Below, one piece after another: positions 1 to 4,673 of a DNA stretch of 4,825 nucleotides. The notes below the pieces were generated by a model. The model saw only the letters and a list, made by a program, of their open reading frames with translations, searched no databases and had not been told where the DNA came from. How positions within the stretch are numbered: position 1 is the first letter of the stretch; each line of letters starts with the position of its first letter. Position numbers and translations under genes: made by a program. This DNA comes from a virus (taxonomy: Duplodnaviria > Heunggongvirae > Uroviricota > Caudoviricetes). The stretch spans positions 1 to 4,825 of IMG/VR virus record IMGVR_UViG_3300029006_000023. One strand, written 5' to 3'.

Positions 1-2068
1 CCGTCAGGGTGTATTCCCCGAGCGGCAGGCCACTGAAACGGTGCTCCGTGTCTGCAGTGATAGCGGTGGTCACCAGACGGCTGTCTTCACCGCTTCCGCT
101 GGTCAGTCGCAGACTGAAGCGCACGCCCTTCACCACCCGCGGCGTGTCCCATTTCGCCTGCGCCAGATACTGGCCGTCAGCGGCGCTCACCTCCACCGTA
201 AGGTGCTGCACTGCCGGTGGGATGACGCTGTTCAGGGTGCCTGACTGCGGCTCAAAGCTGGCCCCGTTATCCACGATGGCTTCTTTTTCCGGCACATGCT
301 GCACTGCCGTGATGGCAAAGGTGCCGTCCGTGTTTTCCCGGATGGAGACACAGCGGAACAGGCGACGACGCAGTGACGGCAGGGAGAGTCCCCACACCCC
401 GTATGTCTCCACACCATCCGGCAGGGTACTGACCTGTATCCGGTCCGGCGCGGGGTGTGCAGTGATGTCCACGCTCACCGGCTTACCGCTGCCGTTAATC
501 AGGTTCACCGTCGAAGTACCTGTCTCTGGCAGGCTCACCTCACGGTCCAGTGTCAGGGTGCGGCTGGCGGCATCAATGGACAGGATGCGTCCGCCGGTCA
601 TGGTCCCGGCATAGTCGTTATCACAGATTTCAATAATGTCACCGGGTGTGTGACGCAGCCCCTGTGACCCGAGCGTGAAATCCACCGTCTGCGTTTCCAG
701 CAGTTCGGTCTTTATCACCCACAGCCCGGCACGGTGGGCCTGACCGCGACTGGTGCAGCCGAACGCATCCATCTTCAGCAGGTTGCGCCCGTAGCGCAGT
801 ATGGCGTCCGGGTCTTCCACCAGTTCCGTGGAGGTCTGCCAGCCGTTCTGCGGGTCGGTGTAATTCACCTCCACCGCCGTGTGACGGTCCTTCAGGGCAC
901 TGAAGCTGTAGCGGAACCCCACGCCGTTATCATCCACCACCACATCGCTGTTGGTGTACGGCCACACCACATCCGACGGGCGGTCCTGAACGAACGTCAG
1001 CGTCTGGCCGTTCCATACCGGCATACAGCGCATCGCCGAGCAGAAATCACTGAGGACGTCCCACGCCTTACGCTGTTGTGACAGGTACGCATTAAAGGTC
1101 ATCCGCGGCTCTGTGCCCCCGAAACCATCCGGGACCATCTGGTCGCAGTACTGCCCGATGGCATACAGCGCCCATTTGTCCACATCCGCCGCCCCCAGGC
1201 GTTTTCCCATTCCGTAACGCGGATGAGTCAGCATGTCCCACAGGCACCAGGCCGGGTTGTTGCTGTATGCCGGTTTCAGGCTGCCGTCCCAGATGCCGCT
1301 GTAAGTGCGTTTTTCCGGGTCATAGTTTGACGGCACCTGGATGATGCGACCGCGGATATGGTAGTTCACCGTCATCTGCTGACCGCCAAACTGCTCCGCA
1401 TCCACCTGCAGGCCCACAATCGCCGTGTTCGGGTAGCACTGTTTCACATCGATGATTTCGGTGTATGACGACCACAGCGTCTTATTCTGCAGCTGGTCCG
1501 TGGTGCTGTCCGCCGTCTCCCGGACCATCCGGATGTTAAAAGGACGCTCAGGCAGGTTATCCAGAATCACCGACGCCAGAAACTGCGAGGTGGTCTTGCC
1601 ATTAATGGTGACATCCTTTTCCGTCACCCAGTTACCGTTACGCTGTAACTGAATCAGCAGCCGGACAGAAGCCGGATTACGGTCACCCTCTGACGTGGTC
1701 TGCACCAGTGACTGCACCCCGAAGGTGACCCGCAGGCGGTCAATGTTCGCGGACGTAATGGTGCGCGTCACCGGCTTTGCCTTCGTCACTTCCACGCCCA
1801 GTGCGGTTTCAGCTCCGGAGGACTCAAAGCCTTCGGGTGGTGTCTGCTCCTGCTCCCCGGCGCGCCAGACCGCGGTCACACCGTGTATCACGGGATTACC
1901 GTCCGTGTCCGTCAGCGGGGTTTTGTTCACCAGAATACTCTGCAGTCCCTTCACCGGACCTTCAATCGGCCCTTCACCAATGGCGTCAATCACGCTCATC
2001 ATCTGCGTGGACTTAAGATTGTCCTTTGCCTCAACCGGCGTGTGCGCCTTGCCGCCACCTTTGCCCAC
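1..2068 (-). CDS. J: Tail tip / central tail fibre host-specificity protein J, N-terminal ~689 codons (partial; 3' end lies beyond window start)
   Basis: Not in the ORF track because it runs off the window. My manual minus-strand translation from GTG (complement of 2066-2068) gives VGKGGGKAHTPVEAKDNLKSTQMMSVIDAIGEGPIEGP..., continuing with no stop to position 2. It matches my recollection of the lambda J N-terminus (MGKGSSKGHTPREAKDNLKSTQLLSVIDAISEGPIEGP...) and contains conserved blocks such as CYPNTA, WCLWDMLTHPRYGMGKRLG, DAFGCTSRGQAHRAGLW and AITAVQHVPEKEAIVDNG. An in-frame TGA lies 25 codons upstream of the GTG. An alternative in-frame GTG exists at 2083-2081. Confidence 0.9.
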   Translation of the reverse strand, partial: MGKGGGKAHTPVEAKDNLKSTQMMSVIDAIGEGPIEGPVKGLQSILVNKTPLTDTDGNPVIHGVTAVWRAGEQEQTPPEGFESSGAETALGVEVTKAKPVTRTITSANIDRLRVTFGVQSLVQTTSEGDRNPASVRLLIQLQRNGNWVTEKDVTINGKTTSQFLASVILDNLPERPFNIRMVRETADSTTDQLQNKTLWSSYTEIIDVKQCYPNTAIVGLQVDAEQFGGQQMTVNYHIRGRIIQVPSNYDPEKRTYSGIWDGSLKPAYSNNPAWCLWDMLTHPRYGMGKRLGAADVDKWALYAIGQYCDQMVPDGFGGTEPRMTFNAYLSQQRKAWDVLSDFCSAMRCMPVWNGQTLTFVQDRPSDVVWPYTNSDVVVDDNGVGFRYSFSALKDRHTAVEVNYTDPQNGWQTSTELVEDPDAILRYGRNLLKMDAFGCTSRGQAHRAGLWVIKTELLETQTVDFTLGSQGLRHTPGDIIEICDNDYAGTMTGGRILSIDAASRTLTLDREVSLPETGTSTVNLINGSGKPVSVDITAHPAPDRIQVSTLPDGVETYGVWGLSLPSLRRRLFRCVSIRENTDGTFAITAVQHVPEKEAIVDNGASFEPQSGTLNSVIPPAVQHLTVEVSAADGQYLAQAKWDTPRVVKGVRFSLRLTSGSGEDSRLVTTAITADTEHRFSGLPLGEYTLT

Positions 2069-2072
2069 GGAA

Positions 2073-2080
2073 TCCCCCTT
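2073..2080 (-). promoter_or_regulatory. Shine-Dalgarno for J (AAGGGGGA on minus strand), 4 nt upstream of GTG start
   Basis: Minus-strand sequence reads gaagggggattccGTG; purine-rich SD at appropriate spacing. Confidence 0.5.
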
Positions 2081-2109
2081 CACTGTCCGCTGCCGGACAC
2101 TGTTGATGT

Positions 2110-2141
2110 ACAAAAACAACAGGCACCCCGGAGAGTGCCTG
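2110..2141 (-). terminator. Terminator-like hairpin oriented for the minus strand, ~40 nt upstream of J start
   Basis: Plus-strand caggcac (2120-2126) and gtgcctg (2135-2141) form a 7-bp GC-rich stem with an 8-nt loop. On the minus strand the stem is followed by UUGUUUUUGU (complement of 2110-2119). Function not established. Confidence 0.4.
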
Positions 2142-2179
2142 CATCATGACGGAATAAAAATTCTGAATATCTTCACATT

Positions 2180-2207
2180 TTCACAAACAGCCTGTGGCGC
2201 TTATAAT
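2180..2207 (+). promoter_or_regulatory. Candidate sigma70 promoter on plus strand: -35 TTCACA (2180-2185), 16-nt spacer, -10 TATAAT (2202-2207)
   Basis: Perfect consensus -10 hexamer, -35 matching TTGACA at 5 of 6, spacing 16 nt. Sits in an AT-rich island and is preceded by a tandem TTCACA-TTT-TCACA repeat (2172-2185). Predicted start around 2214-2216. Confidence 0.5.
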
Positions 2208-2213
2208 TTCACC

Positions 2214-2312
2214 GCGCTAATGTTTTTTTGCCCGAGTAACAGAAACAAAAATAACTCCTTAACGTTAATCTTTGTCTGTCCCCGCAGCTCCGCAACTCTG
2301 CGGGATTTTTTT
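2214..2312 (+). ncRNA. Candidate small non-coding RNA (~100 nt), antisense to the tail late operon, in the I-J intergenic insertion
   Basis: Bounded by the promoter above and the intrinsic terminator below. The only ATG (2221) opens a frame with no SD that reads through the terminator without a stop. Contains six consecutive A-R-N triplets (AAC AGA AAC AAA AAU AAC, 2238-2255) and ends in a GC stem plus U7. Confidence 0.4.
2281..2312 (+). terminator. Rho-independent terminator on plus strand
   Basis: cccgcag (2281-2287) pairs with ctgcggg (2298-2304), 7-bp GC-rich stem with 10-nt loop; alternative 5-bp stem ccgca/tgcgg with 4-nt loop. Followed by a single A and then TTTTTTT (2306-2312). On the minus strand the stem is followed by gacagac, not a U-tract, so it is unidirectional. 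Confidence 0.6.
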
Positions 2313-2318
2313 ATGCTT

Positions 2319-2999
2319 TTACCCCTGCCGCCCGATAACCACCACCTTCCCGCCAGCGCCTTCATCACGGGTGCTGACGTCCTGGGATATTCGCCGGGAG
2401 CCAACCAGCATTTCACCGTAAGGCACCGGCATCGGATTACCCTGGGCAATCATGTTATCCAGCGACGAAAAGTAGGTGTTCTGTTTACCGTTATCCGTTG
2501 CCCTGTATTCCGGTGTTTTGGGCTTCGGGGCAAGCATCTGAGCCACACCACCCAGAATCATGCTGGCCCCCAGTGAAAACAGCATCGTGGTGGCAGAAAA
2601 ACCACCGGCTGCCAGGGCTGAACCCCATAACGCCATTGATGCCCCGGCCGTGAAGAACGACCCCACGATGGCCGCCGCCCCCAGCACAATCTGCAGTCCG
2701 CCCTTTCCGGCTCCGGCCAGTCGCGGCACAATGTGGATGACCGTTCCCTCACCCAGTTGTTCGTGAAGACGGGCGTACACCGCCTCCGGTGCCGTGTCCT
2801 CACCGCGAATACGTATCTGGTACCAGCCTTCGTTCATCTGACGGCGGAATCCCGGCATCTGCATCGACAGGGCGCGAATGGCTTCCGCTGCCGTGTTCAC
2901 ATACAGGCTGAGGCGGCGGCCAAATCGTTGTAAATCCCCGTGAAGGCAGATGCGTGCCAGTGGCGGTGACGCCAGACAGAATGCGTTCGTCGTTGCCAT
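2319..2999 (-). CDS. I: Tail tip assembly protein I
   Basis: 226-aa ORF (MATTNAFCLASPPLARICLHGDLQRFGRR...NGKQNTYFSSLDNM...VVVIGRQG) closely resembling lambda gpI as I recall it. Hydrophobic Gly/Ala-rich central segment. Start overlaps the K 3' end by 103 nt out of frame, as in lambda. Upstream GAGAGG could serve as SD. Confidence 0.9.
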   Translation of the reverse strand: MATTNAFCLASPPLARICLHGDLQRFGRRLSLYVNTAAEAIRALSMQMPGFRRQMNEGWYQIRIRGEDTAPEAVYARLHEQLGEGTVIHIVPRLAGAGKGGLQIVLGAAAIVGSFFTAGASMALWGSALAAGGFSATTMLFSLGASMILGGVAQMLAPKPKTPEYRATDNGKQNTYFSSLDNMIAQGNPMPVPYGEMLVGSRRISQDVSTRDEGAGGKVVVIGRQG

Positions 3000-3640
3000 T
3001 TTTCGGAATACCTCTCCCGTTTACTCAGTTGTTCAGGCAGATGGTGAAGCAGTTCACCGTTGCCGCAGTAAATGGCGGCATGATTGGCCACCGATGCGCC
3101 AAAGCAGCACAGCAGGATATCGCCCGCCTGTGCAGAGGACAGGGGCACCCGGTAAAAGCCCGTTGCCTCCATATTGTCCAGGTACAGGTTCTGACCGTTG
3201 CGCCACCACTCATCCTCACGGTGAAAATCCGGCATCTCAATCCCCGCCAGATGGTATGCATCCCGGAACAGGGTGTAACAGTCCGTCACCCCGTGCTCAA
3301 AGCGCCGTCCGGTCAGGTGCGGCACACAGCGGAATTTGTGAATGTCACCCCGGCAGACCAGCCACCAGGGCAGTGCGCTTTTTATCTGCAGCCGCCGGTC
3401 TGCCTCGCTCAGCCAGGGCAGACCACCGGGATGACTGTGGACCAGTGCCACAATCTCCCCCTGCATCTCTGCCCGCAGCCAGTCTTCCGGTGCAATACGA
3501 AAATACGCCTCCGGCTCTGCAGAGATATTCACACAAGGGATATAGCGCTCCCCCTCCGGCGTTCTCACCACAAAGCCGCACGACTCCGCAGGCGCACACC
3601 GCCGGGCATGCGCCAGAATCGCTGATTCTGTCTGTGTCAT
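2897..3640 (-). CDS. K: Tail tip assembly protein K (MPN/JAMM plus NlpC/P60 domains)
   Basis: 247-aa ORF starting 5 nt after the L stop. Contains H68-S-H70-x7-S78-x2-D81 (HSHPGGLPWLSEAD), a JAMM/MPN metal-binding motif, and a downstream GVTDCY Cys typical of NlpC/P60. Matches my recollection of lambda K; the start could be internal, but the tight L-K spacing favours 3640. Confidence 0.88.
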   Translation of the reverse strand: MTQTESAILAHARRCAPAESCGFVVRTPEGERYIPCVNISAEPEAYFRIAPEDWLRAEMQGEIVALVHSHPGGLPWLSEADRRLQIKSALPWWLVCRGDIHKFRCVPHLTGRRFEHGVTDCYTLFRDAYHLAGIEMPDFHREDEWWRNGQNLYLDNMEATGFYRVPLSSAQAGDILLCCFGASVANHAAIYCGNGELLHHLPEQLSKRERYSEKWQRRTHSVWRHRHWHASAFTGIYNDLAAASACM

Positions 3641-3645
3641 TGGAT

Positions 3646-4344
3646 TTACTGCGAAAGTTTATTAATGGAAAGGAAACCGCCAAAATTGCCGACATTGTTG
3701 CGCATCTCACACCCGCGCATGCACTTGCTGCATTTGTCCTTTGTGATATCGGACGTCGGCTGGTCATACTCATCCGCCACCGCCCCGCCCGTGTAACCAC
3801 ACTCATCAGAGCGGTAGGTCCACATACAGGTGTTCGCCAGCATGATGCGACCGGGAAACAGCGCCCCGTCCGTCTCCGTCGGCGTGGCCAGCACAAACGA
3901 GGCCGTCATGGCCGTCAGCTCTGACATCTGCTCCACCACCCAGCGGTCGGTCAGCTCCTGCTCCGGGTCTGCCTCAGGATTGCCTGCCACAAAGTTCACC
4001 GCATCCAGAAAACGCGCATACACCCGACGGCGGACCACCGTGGCCCCCACCAGACTCTGCAGGTCCTCCGCCATACCGGTGACAAGACCGAACAGATTGG
4101 ACACCGTCAGCGACGGTCTGGCACTGCTGCCCTTCCCGTTCATCTCAAAGCCGCTGCCCTCAATCGGGTACGCCTCATACTTCCGCCCCTGCCAGGTCAC
4201 CGGCTCCCCTTTTTCATTCAGCTCATTGCAGAAAAAATACCGCTCACCGCCCTGCACCGTCAGGTCGATTTCCCAGAGCACCACCCGCGGTGACTGCTCT
4301 GATTTCACCGACTCATTCAGACTTTCTTCATGAATATCCTGCAT
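3646..4344 (-). CDS. L: Minor tail protein L
   Basis: 232-aa ORF (MQDIHEESLNESVKSEQSPRVVLWEIDL...CSKCMRGCEM...) matching lambda gpL in length and sequence as I recall it. C-terminal cysteine cluster (ECGYTGG...DKCSKCMRGC). Start ATG overlaps the M stop (TGATG). Confidence 0.93.
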   Translation of the reverse strand: MQDIHEESLNESVKSEQSPRVVLWEIDLTVQGGERYFFCNELNEKGEPVTWQGRKYEAYPIEGSGFEMNGKGSSARPSLTVSNLFGLVTGMAEDLQSLVGATVVRRRVYARFLDAVNFVAGNPEADPEQELTDRWVVEQMSELTAMTASFVLATPTETDGALFPGRIMLANTCMWTYRSDECGYTGGAVADEYDQPTSDITKDKCSKCMRGCEMRNNVGNFGGFLSINKLSQ

Positions 4345-4673
4345 CAGTTCACCACCTGCTTAAACTCGGCACTGAATTCAACCCGCAGCATCCCGACCCG
4401 CGCAGACCACCCGGCGCAGGTCACCTTTATCTGCCGGTATGCATAGGGTGGCTTCCACAAAAATGCCTTCCAGCCCCCGTGCTCTGCCAGGAATGCTTCC
4501 AGATGCCGGGCCTCCTCCCGGGTCACGGAAAGCATCACCCGGTATGTTTTCAGGTCAGCATTCAGCCCTGCCGCCATACGCTGCGAATAGCCGTCACCAA
4601 AACGCACTTCACGCACCGACGGCTGCGAGTTCACCTCCATATCCGGCTTCACTTTCCAGCGAAAGGTTTTCAT
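4344..4673 (-). CDS. M: Minor tail protein M
   Basis: 109-aa ORF (MKTFRWKVKP...LRVEFSAEFKQVVN), same length as and near-identical in my recollection to lambda gpM. Start ATG overlaps the H stop (ATGA). Confidence 0.93.
   Translation of the reverse strand: MKTFRWKVKPDMEVNSQPSVREVRFGDGYSQRMAAGLNADLKTYRVMLSVTREEARHLEAFLAEHGGWKAFLWKPPYAYRQIKVTCAGWSARVGMLRVEFSAEFKQVVN

What the first reader, a model, noticed from the sequence alone, without database searches (positions are those of the whole stretch)
2069..2318. AT-rich moron between tail genes I and J carrying an antisense promoter-sRNA-terminator unit
The I-J junction is ~250 nt here, against roughly 60 nt in lambda as I recall it. The extra DNA is ~36% GC (hand count over 2141-2280) inside a GC-rich operon, which suggests horizontal acquisition. 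On the strand opposite the tail genes it has a near-consensus sigma70 promoter (TTCACA, 16 nt, TATAAT at 2180-2207) and about 75 nt downstream a strong intrinsic terminator (2281-2312). The ~100-nt transcript has no plausible ORF. This looks like a self-contained small RNA gene, expressible from the prophage in the lysogen independently of late transcription. Prophage-encoded sRNAs are known (DicF in Qin, IpeX in DLP12, anti-sRNAs in EHEC prophages), but I cannot tell from sequence alone whether this one matches any of them.
Basis: partly seen in the sequence, partly recalled or inferred. Interest (0 to 1): 0.8.

Follow-up and report, generated by a model that had tools for sequence, protein, structure and literature searches.

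The report
PasB-family prophage small RNA gene

Summary
The I-J spacer is 2069-2318 (250 nt; lambda has 60). GC is 36% over 2141-2280, against 60% for the rest of the window. The + strand has TTCACA-16-TATAAT (2180-2207) and a terminator (stem 2281-2304, U7 2306-2312).

The spacer is homologous to the I-J spacer of EPEC E2348/69 prophage PP6, which holds PasB. PasB is an 83-nt, Hfq-dependent sRNA shown by Northern blot and RIL-seq, antisense to the tail genes, with its 3' end 6 nt from the I stop. A covariance model built without the window's own sequence class hits 2214-2312(+) at 75.5 bits (E 5e-13). The same model hits the O157 Sakai loci of EcOnc22/23/24 (~85 nt, destabilised without Hfq).

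In my samples, 80/80 prophages with this type of gene I carry the element and 0/80 with lambda-type I do. It therefore behaves as a moron.

The RNA body is unstructured and has seven consecutive A-R-N triplets, a pyrimidine-rich core and a U-tail. The most likely mechanism is a trans-acting, Hfq-dependent base-pairing sRNA expressed in the lysogen; its targets are unknown.

Verdict: a new allele of a known family that is unannotated in RefSeq and absent from Rfam. Interest is modest.

The parts
2214..2312 (+). Predicted primary transcript of the PasB-family sRNA (99 nt). The part homologous to the published 83-nt EPEC PasB is 2229-2312.
   Evidence: Covariance model R1, built without the window's sequence class, matches 2214-2312(+) full length at 75.5 bits, E 4.6e-13. 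Identity to E2348/69 PasB is 72/89 aligned columns, with three indels. PasB coordinates come from PMC8550237 Table S6.
2180..2207 (+). Sigma-70 promoter: -35 TTCACA 2180-2185, 16-nt spacer, -10 TATAAT 2202-2207.
   Evidence: 11/12 consensus match, rare in simulations. A -10 with A2 and T6 (TATAAT, AATAAT, GATAAT or TATCAT) is kept in every allele that has a promoter. The -35 is kept in only some classes.
2143..2182 (+). Highly conserved block upstream of the promoter. It contains a CRP-like TCTGA-N6-TCACA (2162-2177) and a direct repeat TTCACA-N2-TTCACA (2172-2185). Candidate activator site or UP element.
   Evidence: 33/40 columns are invariant in 32 unique spacers, the best-conserved internal segment. 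The only TGTGA-N6-TCACA match with at most 1 mismatch in the window lies here, but 29/200 shuffles also give at least one match. The function is inferred.
2235..2255 (+). Seven consecutive A-R-N triplets (AGU AAC AGA AAC AAA AAU AAC). Candidate binding motif for the distal face of Hfq.
   Evidence: The only such run in the window; 0.01 expected in 200 shuffles. By eye, 3-4 A-R-N triplets stand at the same place in the other alleles. A-R-N as an Hfq motif is from PMC4104026 (abstract).
2253..2272 (+). Conserved single-stranded core AAYUCY...UUAAUCUU. Candidate seed; ACUCCUUA is complementary to a Shine-Dalgarno-like UAAGGAGU.
   Evidence: It holds most of the invariant columns inside the RNA body (A35, A38, A41, C44, T47, A55-T59, T62 of alignment A2). 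RNAalifold leaves the body unpaired. The seed role is inferred.
2281..2312 (+). Intrinsic terminator: stem CCCGCAG/CTGCGGG (2281-2287/2298-2304), 10-nt loop, U7 at 2306-2312. It ends 6 nt before the I stop codon.
   Evidence: The stem is kept in 23-24 of 24 alleles, while the loop varies in sequence and length (10-17 nt). Because the stem never varies, there is no covariation.
2109..2142 (-). Terminator-like hairpin on the tail-gene strand (stem 2142-2119, then UGUUUUUGU), about 40 nt upstream of the J start. It belongs to the ancestral junction, not to the sRNA cassette.
   Evidence: Found. A 9-bp stem is paired in 98% of cells over 13 variants, with one compensatory pair (CG 8, UA 3, UG 1), not significant (48/500 shuffles). 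Lambda and 80 lambda-type junctions have an analogous hairpin, AACCGCC-NNNN-GGCGGTTTTGTC, in their 60-nt spacer.
2319..2999 (-). Tail assembly gene I (flanking gene).
   Evidence: ORF; Pfam Lambda_tail_I, 7e-16; 68% identical to lambda I.
1..2068 (-). 5' part of tail tip/host specificity gene J (flanking gene; it runs off the window).
   Evidence: Translation. RefSeq annotates it as gpJ in the 100%-identical E. coli UTAK-6 prophage.

Best explanation
Positions about 2143-2312 on the + strand form an autonomous small-RNA gene of the PasB family, inserted as a moron between the stop of tail gene I and the ancestral hairpin that precedes J. It is transcribed against the late operon from its own sigma-70 promoter (-10 at 2202-2207) and ends at its own intrinsic terminator (U-run 2306-2312). 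The product is an RNA of about 85-99 nt made in the lysogen while the tail genes are silent. The RNA body is unstructured and A/U-rich, with seven A-R-N triplets, a pyrimidine-rich core and a hairpin plus U7 tail. I propose that Hfq binds the A-R-N run and the U-tail and presents the core (about 2253-2280) for imperfect pairing with host and prophage mRNAs, probably at ribosome-binding sites. What is shown here: the anatomy, homology, synteny and presence/absence. What is shown in the literature for homologues: expression, size, Hfq dependence and many RNA partners. What is inferred: expression of this allele, the seed, the targets and the regulatory outcome.
For: Homology and synteny
- The spacer has 88% column identity to the E2348/69 I-J spacer.
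- PasB lies there at 1466343->1466261, antisense to I (1465674-1466255) and J (from 1466496).
- Model R1, which excludes the window's own class, scores 75.5 bits (E 4.6e-13) at 2214-2312(+). It scores 99.5 bits on PasB itself and nothing on lambda.

Literature on homologues
- PasB was detected by Northern blot with Hfq-dependent stability and is more abundant in static LB (PMC8550237).
- The table comparing delta-hfq with wild type gives log2FC -6.8 and -2.4. PasB has 37 RIL-seq interactions and is the second RNA in 99-100% of chimeras.
- The neighbouring I and J genes have baseMean 5-15, against 482-1082 for PasB.
- Sakai EcOnc22/23/24 are on the strand opposite the tail genes, about 85 nt by Northern, and destabilised in delta-hfq. 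After converting NC_002695.1 coordinates to NC_002695.2 (+128 to +137), their Hfq peaks fall inside the R1 hits at 2902836-2902926 and the equivalent positions in the other two prophages.

Anatomy
- 11/12 promoter match.
- Terminator.
- (ARN)7 run, 0.01 expected by chance.

Moron behaviour
- 80/80 loci with window-type I carry the element and 0/80 with lambda-type I do.
- GC is 36% against 60%.
Against: - No expression data exist for this allele. It is rare: one 100% match among 5,426 complete E. coli genomes.
- It differs from EPEC PasB by three indels and several substitutions in the putative seed, so targets need not be shared.
- There is no covariation support. The only conserved helix is invariant.
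- The published EPEC 5' end sits about 15 nt downstream of the start predicted from the -10, so the true 5' end, or any processing, is unresolved.
- The source paper reported no target motif for PasB (no entry in its motif table), and the 2026 survey calls its function not elucidated.
- My search for pairing with 32 prophage translation-initiation regions was no better than shuffled controls.
Confidence: 0.85

Rival explanations
1. It acts mainly in cis. The RNA, or transcription from its promoter, opposes the late tail operon. Either it pairs with the fully complementary I-J segment of the late mRNA (processing or uncoupling of J from I), or RNA polymerases collide. The effect would be to tune J expression during lytic growth.
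For: The RNA is perfectly complementary to 2214-2312 of the late transcript and convergent with it. Its position between I and J is fixed in all 80 carriers.
Against: The transcript stops 6 nt short of I and starts about 145 nt from the J start codon, so it covers no ribosome-binding site or coding sequence. In EPEC it is abundant when I and J are essentially silent. There it forms chimeras with many unlinked RNAs (37 interactions). Neither I nor J appears in the held part of the RIL-seq table. The lambda-type tail operon does without it.
Confidence: 0.1
2. It is a sponge (anti-sRNA) that titrates a core-genome sRNA or Hfq itself, like the prophage RNAs AgvB and AsxR, rather than a direct mRNA regulator.
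For: It is prophage-encoded, short and Hfq-bound, with a long A-R-N run that could compete for the distal face of Hfq. AgvB and AsxR set a precedent in EHEC prophages (PMC4104026). One PasB chimera partner is an RNA from the PasA locus.
Against: It shows no similarity to AgvB or AsxR (no Rfam hit) and sits at a different site (tail junction versus the PR' moron site). In EPEC, 30 of 37 interactions are in the column I read as CDS/5'UTR partners, and PasB met the authors' criterion of more than 67% interactions with CDS/5'UTR.
Confidence: 0.1
3. It is an inactive relic: sequence kept only as recombination homology at a mosaic junction or as a terminator for neighbouring cassettes, with no functional RNA from this allele.
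For: The junction is a swap site. 12/80 loci have a sodC cassette that removed the sRNA promoter but kept the body and terminator, and 16/80 have another J-proximal module. The body differs widely between alleles.
Against: This allele has the best promoter of all the classes (11/12) together with an intact terminator and U7. Two other alleles are experimentally expressed. Conserved single-stranded motifs inside the body argue for selection on the RNA.
Confidence: 0.04
4. It encodes a small protein, starting at ATG 2220.
For: The frame from ATG 2220 stays open through the spacer. It is part of a 293-codon antisense frame, 1695-2576.
Against: There is no Shine-Dalgarno sequence. The frame runs into the terminator with no stop codon. 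The ATG is not conserved, and homologues differ by indels of 1, 4 and 6 nt and other lengths. The long frame is simply the antisense of GC-rich J and I.
Confidence: 0.01

Closest known systems
PasB (E2348CN_0006), prophage PP6 of EPEC O127:H6 E2348/69. Pearl Mizrahi et al. 2021 (PMC8550237); distribution in Zhu, Shabalina and Storz 2026 (bioRxiv 10.64898/2026.05.13.724894).
   Same: Same site (I-J spacer), same strand relative to the tail genes, and the same 6-nt gap to the I stop. The terminator stem and U7 are the same, as are the -10 and the upstream conserved block. Identity over the RNA is 81%, and 88% over the spacer.
   Different: Three indels (+6, -4, -1 nt) and substitutions in the A-rich region and core. 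The window allele has 7 A-R-N triplets and can fold a small hairpin that displays UCCUUAAC, which the EPEC allele is not predicted to form. Its longest exact shared stretch of about 23 nt (read off the alignment) is below the 28-nt word used in the 2026 survey. It was probably not counted there.
EcOnc22/EcOnc23/EcOnc24 of E. coli O157:H7 Sakai prophages Sp15, Sp14 and Sp11. Tree et al. 2014 (PMC4104026, Table S2); listed with unknown targets in PMC7873438.
   Same: Same junction, strand and architecture. Model R1 scores 91.4 bits at each Sakai I-J spacer. The RNA is about 85 nt by Northern and destabilised in delta-hfq.
   Different: A different sequence class: no -35 match, an AATAAT -10, a shorter A-rich region and the core ACUCCAUAACGUUAAUCUUC. 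The link between PasB and EcOnc22-24 is my own mapping. It rests on a +128 to +137 coordinate conversion between genome versions. The PasB paper lists no EHEC homologue for PasB.
Prophage anti-sRNAs AgvB and AsxR (Rfam RF02702, RF02703).
   Same: Short Hfq-bound RNAs carried by lambdoid prophages as morons with their own promoter and terminator.
   Different: No sequence or structure match. They lie downstream of PR', near the lysis genes, as convergent pairs, and are 51-60 nt long.
Phage lambda I-J junction.
   Same: The flanking genes are orthologous (I is 68% identical). Both junctions keep a terminator-like hairpin on the tail-gene strand just upstream of J.
   Different: Lambda has 60 nt and no antisense promoter, RNA body or terminator. 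R1 gives no hit in lambda or in 80 lambda-type loci.
STnc100/PasD (Rfam RF02076).
   Same: A prophage-borne enterobacterial sRNA. A true copy sits elsewhere in the source prophage (L083 39826-40032, 154 bits).
   Different: In the spacer there is only a 19.8-bit match on the opposite strand (2110-2191), far below the gathering score of 47. It is driven by the sense-strand hairpin.

Membership tests
PasB sRNA family | Located in the spacer between tail genes I and J of a lambdoid prophage, on the strand opposite the tail genes, with its 3' end next to the I stop codon. | tested here: met
   Window: 2214/2229-2312(+), with the I stop at 2319-2321(-). E2348/69: PasB 1466343->1466261(-), with I ending at 1466255(+). 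The gap is 6 nt in the window and 5-6 nt in E2348/69, depending on how the ends are counted.
PasB sRNA family | Sequence homology to the E2348/69 PasB RNA. | tested here: met
   72/89 aligned columns are identical. Model R1, built from 18 alleles excluding the window's class, gives 75.5 bits, E 4.6e-13, full length.
PasB sRNA family | Rho-independent terminator with a U-tract of at least 4 (the authors' sRNA criterion; 7 for PasB). | tested here: met
   Stem CCCGCAG/CTGCGGG plus U7.
PasB sRNA family | Own promoter, giving expression in the uninduced lysogen. | tested here: inconclusive
   A consensus promoter is present (11/12), but a consensus match is not activity. Expression is shown only for the EPEC and EHEC alleles.
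PasB sRNA family | Hfq binding and Hfq-dependent stability, with multiple mRNA partners. | not testable with these tools
   Only sequence correlates are available: the (ARN)7 run, the U-tail and the unstructured A/U-rich body.
EcOnc22/23/24 (Tree et al. 2014) | Hfq-CRAC peak on the strand opposite the tail genes, in the I-J spacer of Sakai Sp15, Sp14 and Sp11. | tested here: met
   R1 hits lie at NC_002695.2 2902836-2902926 and the equivalent sites in Sp14 and Sp11 (91.4 bits). The published peaks, 2902714-2902774 and so on in NC_002695.1, land inside these hits after the +128 to +137 shift derived. The window allele is homologous to these loci through the same model.
Phage moron (Juhala et al. 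2000, as cited in PMC4104026) | Extra DNA between two genes that are adjacent in related phages. | tested here: met
   Lambda and 80 lambda-type loci have a 59-60-nt spacer and no R1 hit. 80/80 window-type loci have one.
Phage moron (Juhala et al. 2000, as cited in PMC4104026) | Own promoter and terminator, and a base composition unlike the surrounding operon. This definition is from my own knowledge of the moron concept. | tested here: met
   Promoter and terminator. GC is 36.4% (2141-2280) against 59.8%.
Anti-sRNAs AgvB/AsxR; DicF; other curated prophage sRNAs in Rfam | Match to the Rfam covariance model at the gathering score. | tested here: not met
   No family reaches its gathering score anywhere in the window. 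The best sub-threshold matches in 2040-2350 are on the other strand: STnc100 at 19.8 bits (threshold 47) and Hrs1 at 19.6 bits (threshold 56.4).

The most novel reading that the evidence does not exclude
The I-J junction RNA is a modular locus in which the seed is swapped, not one conserved sRNA. An almost invariant upstream control block (2143-2182) and an invariant terminator would bracket a body that exists in at least five sequence classes (window type; EPEC PasB; Sakai EcOnc22-24; a BP-4795/Stx-phage class; a class also found downstream of sodC). Under this reading, prophages exchange target specificity by recombination, and polylysogens (up to 7 copies per genome) carry several alleles with different regulons under one shared signal. 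That signal might be CRP or a response regulator bound to the conserved block. The window allele would be a distinct specificity with an unusually strong Hfq distal-face motif.
Probability: 0.3. Interest if true: 0.55.

Novelty: new member of a known kind. Interest (0 to 1): 0.3.

Why it matters
It confirms that a tool-free reading of raw sequence can pick out a real, experimentally supported regulatory RNA gene that genome annotation (RefSeq) and Rfam both miss.

About 30% of complete E. coli genomes (1,647 of 5,426) carry a related spacer, often in several copies. If my mapping is right, two literatures (PasB in EPEC, EcOnc22-24 in EHEC) describe alleles of one family whose targets remain unknown.

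For prophage biology, it adds the I-J tail junction to the PR' region as a site where lambdoid phages carry cargo expressed in the lysogen, either an sRNA or sodC.

For this window specifically the result is ordinary: a variant allele of a known family.

Tried and rejected
- Rfam, gathering and permissive thresholds. Nothing usable. The weak STnc100 and Hrs1 matches are on the opposite strand and driven by hairpins.
- Covariation. The only consensus helix of the sRNA is invariant, so covariation says nothing for or against it. The sense-strand hairpin has one compensatory pair, which is not significant (48/500 shuffles).
- Coding potential. Rejected (see rivals).
- A second, sense-strand sRNA ending at the 2142-2119 hairpin. 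2105-2192(-) folds well (z -2.9), but there is no promoter-like site on that strand and no minus-strand Hfq peak is listed for Sakai. The hairpin also exists in lambda, which lacks the cassette. I treat it as an ancestral junction feature.
- CRP site. TCTGA-N6-TCACA at 2162-2177 has invariant half-sites and a variable centre. It is centred about -44.5 from the predicted start rather than the usual -41.5 or -61.5 (from my knowledge of CRP promoters). 29/200 shuffles give such a match. I keep it only as a lead. An OmpR-like tandem repeat is an equally loose alternative.
- Pairing of the RNA body with 32 translation-initiation regions of the source prophage. The best value, -35.6 kcal/mol (J), was equalled or beaten by 26/100 shuffles, and the duplexes were implausibly gapped.
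- HnrS (EcOnc10-12). Checked as a candidate identity, but it lies between the lysis and terminase genes, not at I-J.
- PasB target list. I could not pull it from the stored RIL-seq table.
- Species range. An exact 18-base pattern from the conserved block found only Escherichia albertii plus three tiny, probably contaminant, contigs among 185,579 species representatives. Divergent homologues would be missed.

Full report
**What is in the window.** All long genes are on the minus strand and are lambda-like tail genes: M (4344-4673), L (3646-4344), K (2897-3640) and I (2319-2999). J starts at GTG 2068 and runs off the left end. Pfam confirms Phage_min_tail, Phage_tail_L, JAB+NlpC/P60 and Lambda_tail_I. 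The window is 100% identical to a lambdoid prophage at ompW in bovine E. coli strain UTAK-6, where RefSeq annotates nothing between I and J.

**The observation.** The I-J spacer is exactly 2069-2318 (250 nt). Lambda's is 60 nt. GC is 36.4% over 2141-2280 and 59.8% outside the spacer.
- On the + strand the only promoter-like site in the window is TTCACA-16-TATAAT at 2180-2207, matching 11 of 12.
- A match that good arose in 1.5% of simulated windows and 0.36% of simulated spacers.
- A 7-bp GC-rich stem (2281-2287/2298-2304) followed by U7 (2306-2312) lies 74 nt downstream.
- The ATG at 2220 has no ribosome-binding site and no stop before the terminator, and it is not conserved.

**Identity.** Rfam has no family for this element. 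A literature search led to the Pas sRNAs of EPEC.
- Table S6 of Pearl Mizrahi et al. 2021 places PasB at NC_011601.1 1466343->1466261 (minus strand, 83 nt) between E2348C_1436 and E2348C_1437. Its Northern probe is complementary to a terminator nearly identical to the window's.
- In that genome these two genes are I (ending at 1466255) and J (starting at 1466496), both on the plus strand.
- PasB therefore occupies the I-J spacer, antisense, about 6 nt from the I stop, exactly as in the window.
- The two spacers align at 88% column identity and the RNAs at 72/89 columns with three indels.
- To avoid circularity I built a covariance model from 18 alleles that excluded the window's own sequence class. 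It finds 2214-2312(+) at 75.5 bits (E 4.6e-13), PasB at 99.5 bits, and nothing in lambda.

**A second name for the same family.** Table S2 of Tree et al. 2014 lists EcOnc22, EcOnc23 and EcOnc24 in Sakai prophages Sp15, Sp14 and Sp11. They are on the + strand, about 85 nt by Northern, and destabilised in delta-hfq.
- In NC_002695.2 the I-J spacers of these prophages have the tail genes on the minus strand, and the model hits each spacer on the + strand at 91.4 bits.
- The published peaks are in NC_002695.1 coordinates.
- From the Rfam position of AgvB and the three identical HnrS loci, I derived a shift of +128 to +137 nt between the two versions.
- That shift puts each peak inside the model hit.

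I conclude that EcOnc22-24 are alleles of the PasB family. The PasB paper lists no EHEC homologue for PasB, and a 2021 review lists EcOnc22-24 with unknown targets.

**Moron behaviour.** I collected 80 viral contigs whose I protein is at least 95% identical to the window's, and 80 whose I is at least 99% identical to lambda's. The two I types are 68% identical to each other.
- All 80 of the first set have a model hit immediately after the I stop on the opposite strand.
- None of the lambda-type set has a hit, and their spacers are 59-60 nt.
- Related spacers occur in 1,647 of 5,426 complete E. coli genomes, up to seven per genome, and in 147 phage records, mostly Stx-converting phages.
- Among species representatives, an exact pattern from the conserved block found only Escherichia albertii plus probable contaminants. 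This agrees with the Escherichia/Shigella range reported in 2026.

**Anatomy across alleles.** Forty-six distinct spacers from the first set, plus six phage and genome spacers, show a modular layout. The modules, in order from J to I, are:
- a variable J leader;
- a conserved hairpin with a U-run on the tail-gene strand (2142-2109), which lambda also has in its own form;
- an almost invariant 40-nt block (2143-2182; 33/40 invariant columns);
- a promoter region in three or more versions, of which only some have a -35 match;
- a body in at least five sequence classes;
- an invariant terminator stem with a variable loop.

RNAalifold predicts only the terminator, so the body is single-stranded. 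Inside the body the conserved elements are an A-rich run, AAYUCY and UUAAUCUU. The window allele has seven consecutive A-R-N triplets at 2235-2255, unique in the window and expected 0.01 times by chance. Tree et al. reported A-R-N repeats as the Hfq-binding motif.

**Mechanism.** The best-supported reading is a trans-acting, Hfq-dependent base-pairing sRNA expressed from the prophage in the lysogen.
- In EPEC the RNA is abundant while I and J are nearly silent.
- It drops strongly in the table comparing delta-hfq with wild type (log2FC -6.8 and -2.4) and is more abundant in static LB.
- It has 37 RIL-seq interactions, almost always as the second RNA of the chimera.

These are facts about a homologue. 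For this allele the expression, seed and targets are inferred. The core ACUCCUUA is complementary to a Shine-Dalgarno-like sequence, which suggests pairing at ribosome-binding sites, but I could not test this. A purely cis-antisense role is unlikely, because the RNA overlaps no coding sequence or ribosome-binding site. A sponge role cannot be excluded.

**Regulation (speculative).** Classes that lack a -35 match are nevertheless expressed (Sakai), and the block just upstream is the most conserved part of the spacer. This suggests an activator site or UP element. A CRP-like TCTGA-N6-TCACA with invariant half-sites sits at 2162-2177. Its spacing is atypical and its chance probability is not small, so it is only a lead.

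**Verdict.** What this analysis adds:
- this specific divergent allele;
- the equation of PasB with EcOnc22-24;
- the strict association with one lineage of gene I;
- the modular, multi-class structure of the locus.

Interest is modest.

Noticed in passing
window 2109-2142 (-); L082 760-790 (+): A terminator-like hairpin with a U-run lies on the tail-gene strand just upstream of J. It is conserved in the window-type spacers, and lambda-type junctions carry their own version. It sits inside the late operon, so Q-modified polymerase would have to read through it. Its role (insulating J in the lysogen, or an mRNA end) is unknown.
   Followed up: partly
window 2143-2182: This is the best-conserved internal segment of the spacer (33/40 invariant columns), better conserved than the sRNA body or the -35 region. 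It contains a CRP-like TCTGA-N6-TCACA and a direct repeat TTCACA-N2-TTCACA.
   Followed up: partly
L006 (and 11 other loci, e.g. L014, L033); spacer of 851 nt: At the same junction a Cu/Zn superoxide dismutase gene (sodC; Pfam Sod_Cu, 3.9e-32) lies on the sRNA strand with its own terminator. It replaces the sense-strand hairpin, the conserved block and the sRNA promoter. The sRNA body and terminator remain downstream of it.
   Followed up: partly
L011 (and 15 other loci); spacer of 341-344 nt: The J-proximal module is replaced by about 190 nt of unrelated sequence. It holds a hairpin AAACCCCGGTATC...GATACCGGGGTTTTCTTT flanked by A-runs and T-runs on both strands. There is no Rfam match, and it could be another small transcript.
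   Followed up: partly
window 1695-2576 (+): A 293-codon open frame on the antisense strand runs through J, the whole AT-rich spacer and into I. It is almost certainly an artefact of GC-rich antisense frames, and indels break it in homologues.
   Followed up: yes
L041 spacer, J leader (equivalent to window ~2085-2100): The J leader of some alleles carries 2-4 tandem copies of TGTCTGA (4 in L041). The window allele has a different leader.
   Followed up: no
L112 (Streptomyces flavalbus, 3.4-kb contig), L097 (Asaia platycodi, 546 nt), L105 (Parendozoicomonas haliclonae, 460 nt): Tiny contigs in assemblies of unrelated bacteria carry this E. coli lambdoid I-J spacer (74-90% identity; R1 gives 94-101 bits on L105 and L112). 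They are most likely contamination of those assemblies.
   Followed up: partly
L083 39826-40032 (-), outside the window: The source prophage in E. coli UTAK-6 also carries a full STnc100 copy (154 bits) next to tRNA-Arg near its late-promoter region. RefSeq flags its J gene as frameshifted.
   Followed up: no
NC_002695.1 versus NC_002695.2 (Sakai): Coordinates in the Tree et al. 2014 sRNA table are offset by about +128 to +137 nt from the current RefSeq version between 1.78 and 2.9 Mb. Used uncorrected, the peaks would be placed on the wrong feature.
   Followed up: yes
window 2897-2999 (-): The longest I frame overlaps the end of K by 103 nt. RefSeq starts I 33 nt further in (648-nt CDS). Lambda shows the same K/I overlap (14773-14875).
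   Followed up: no
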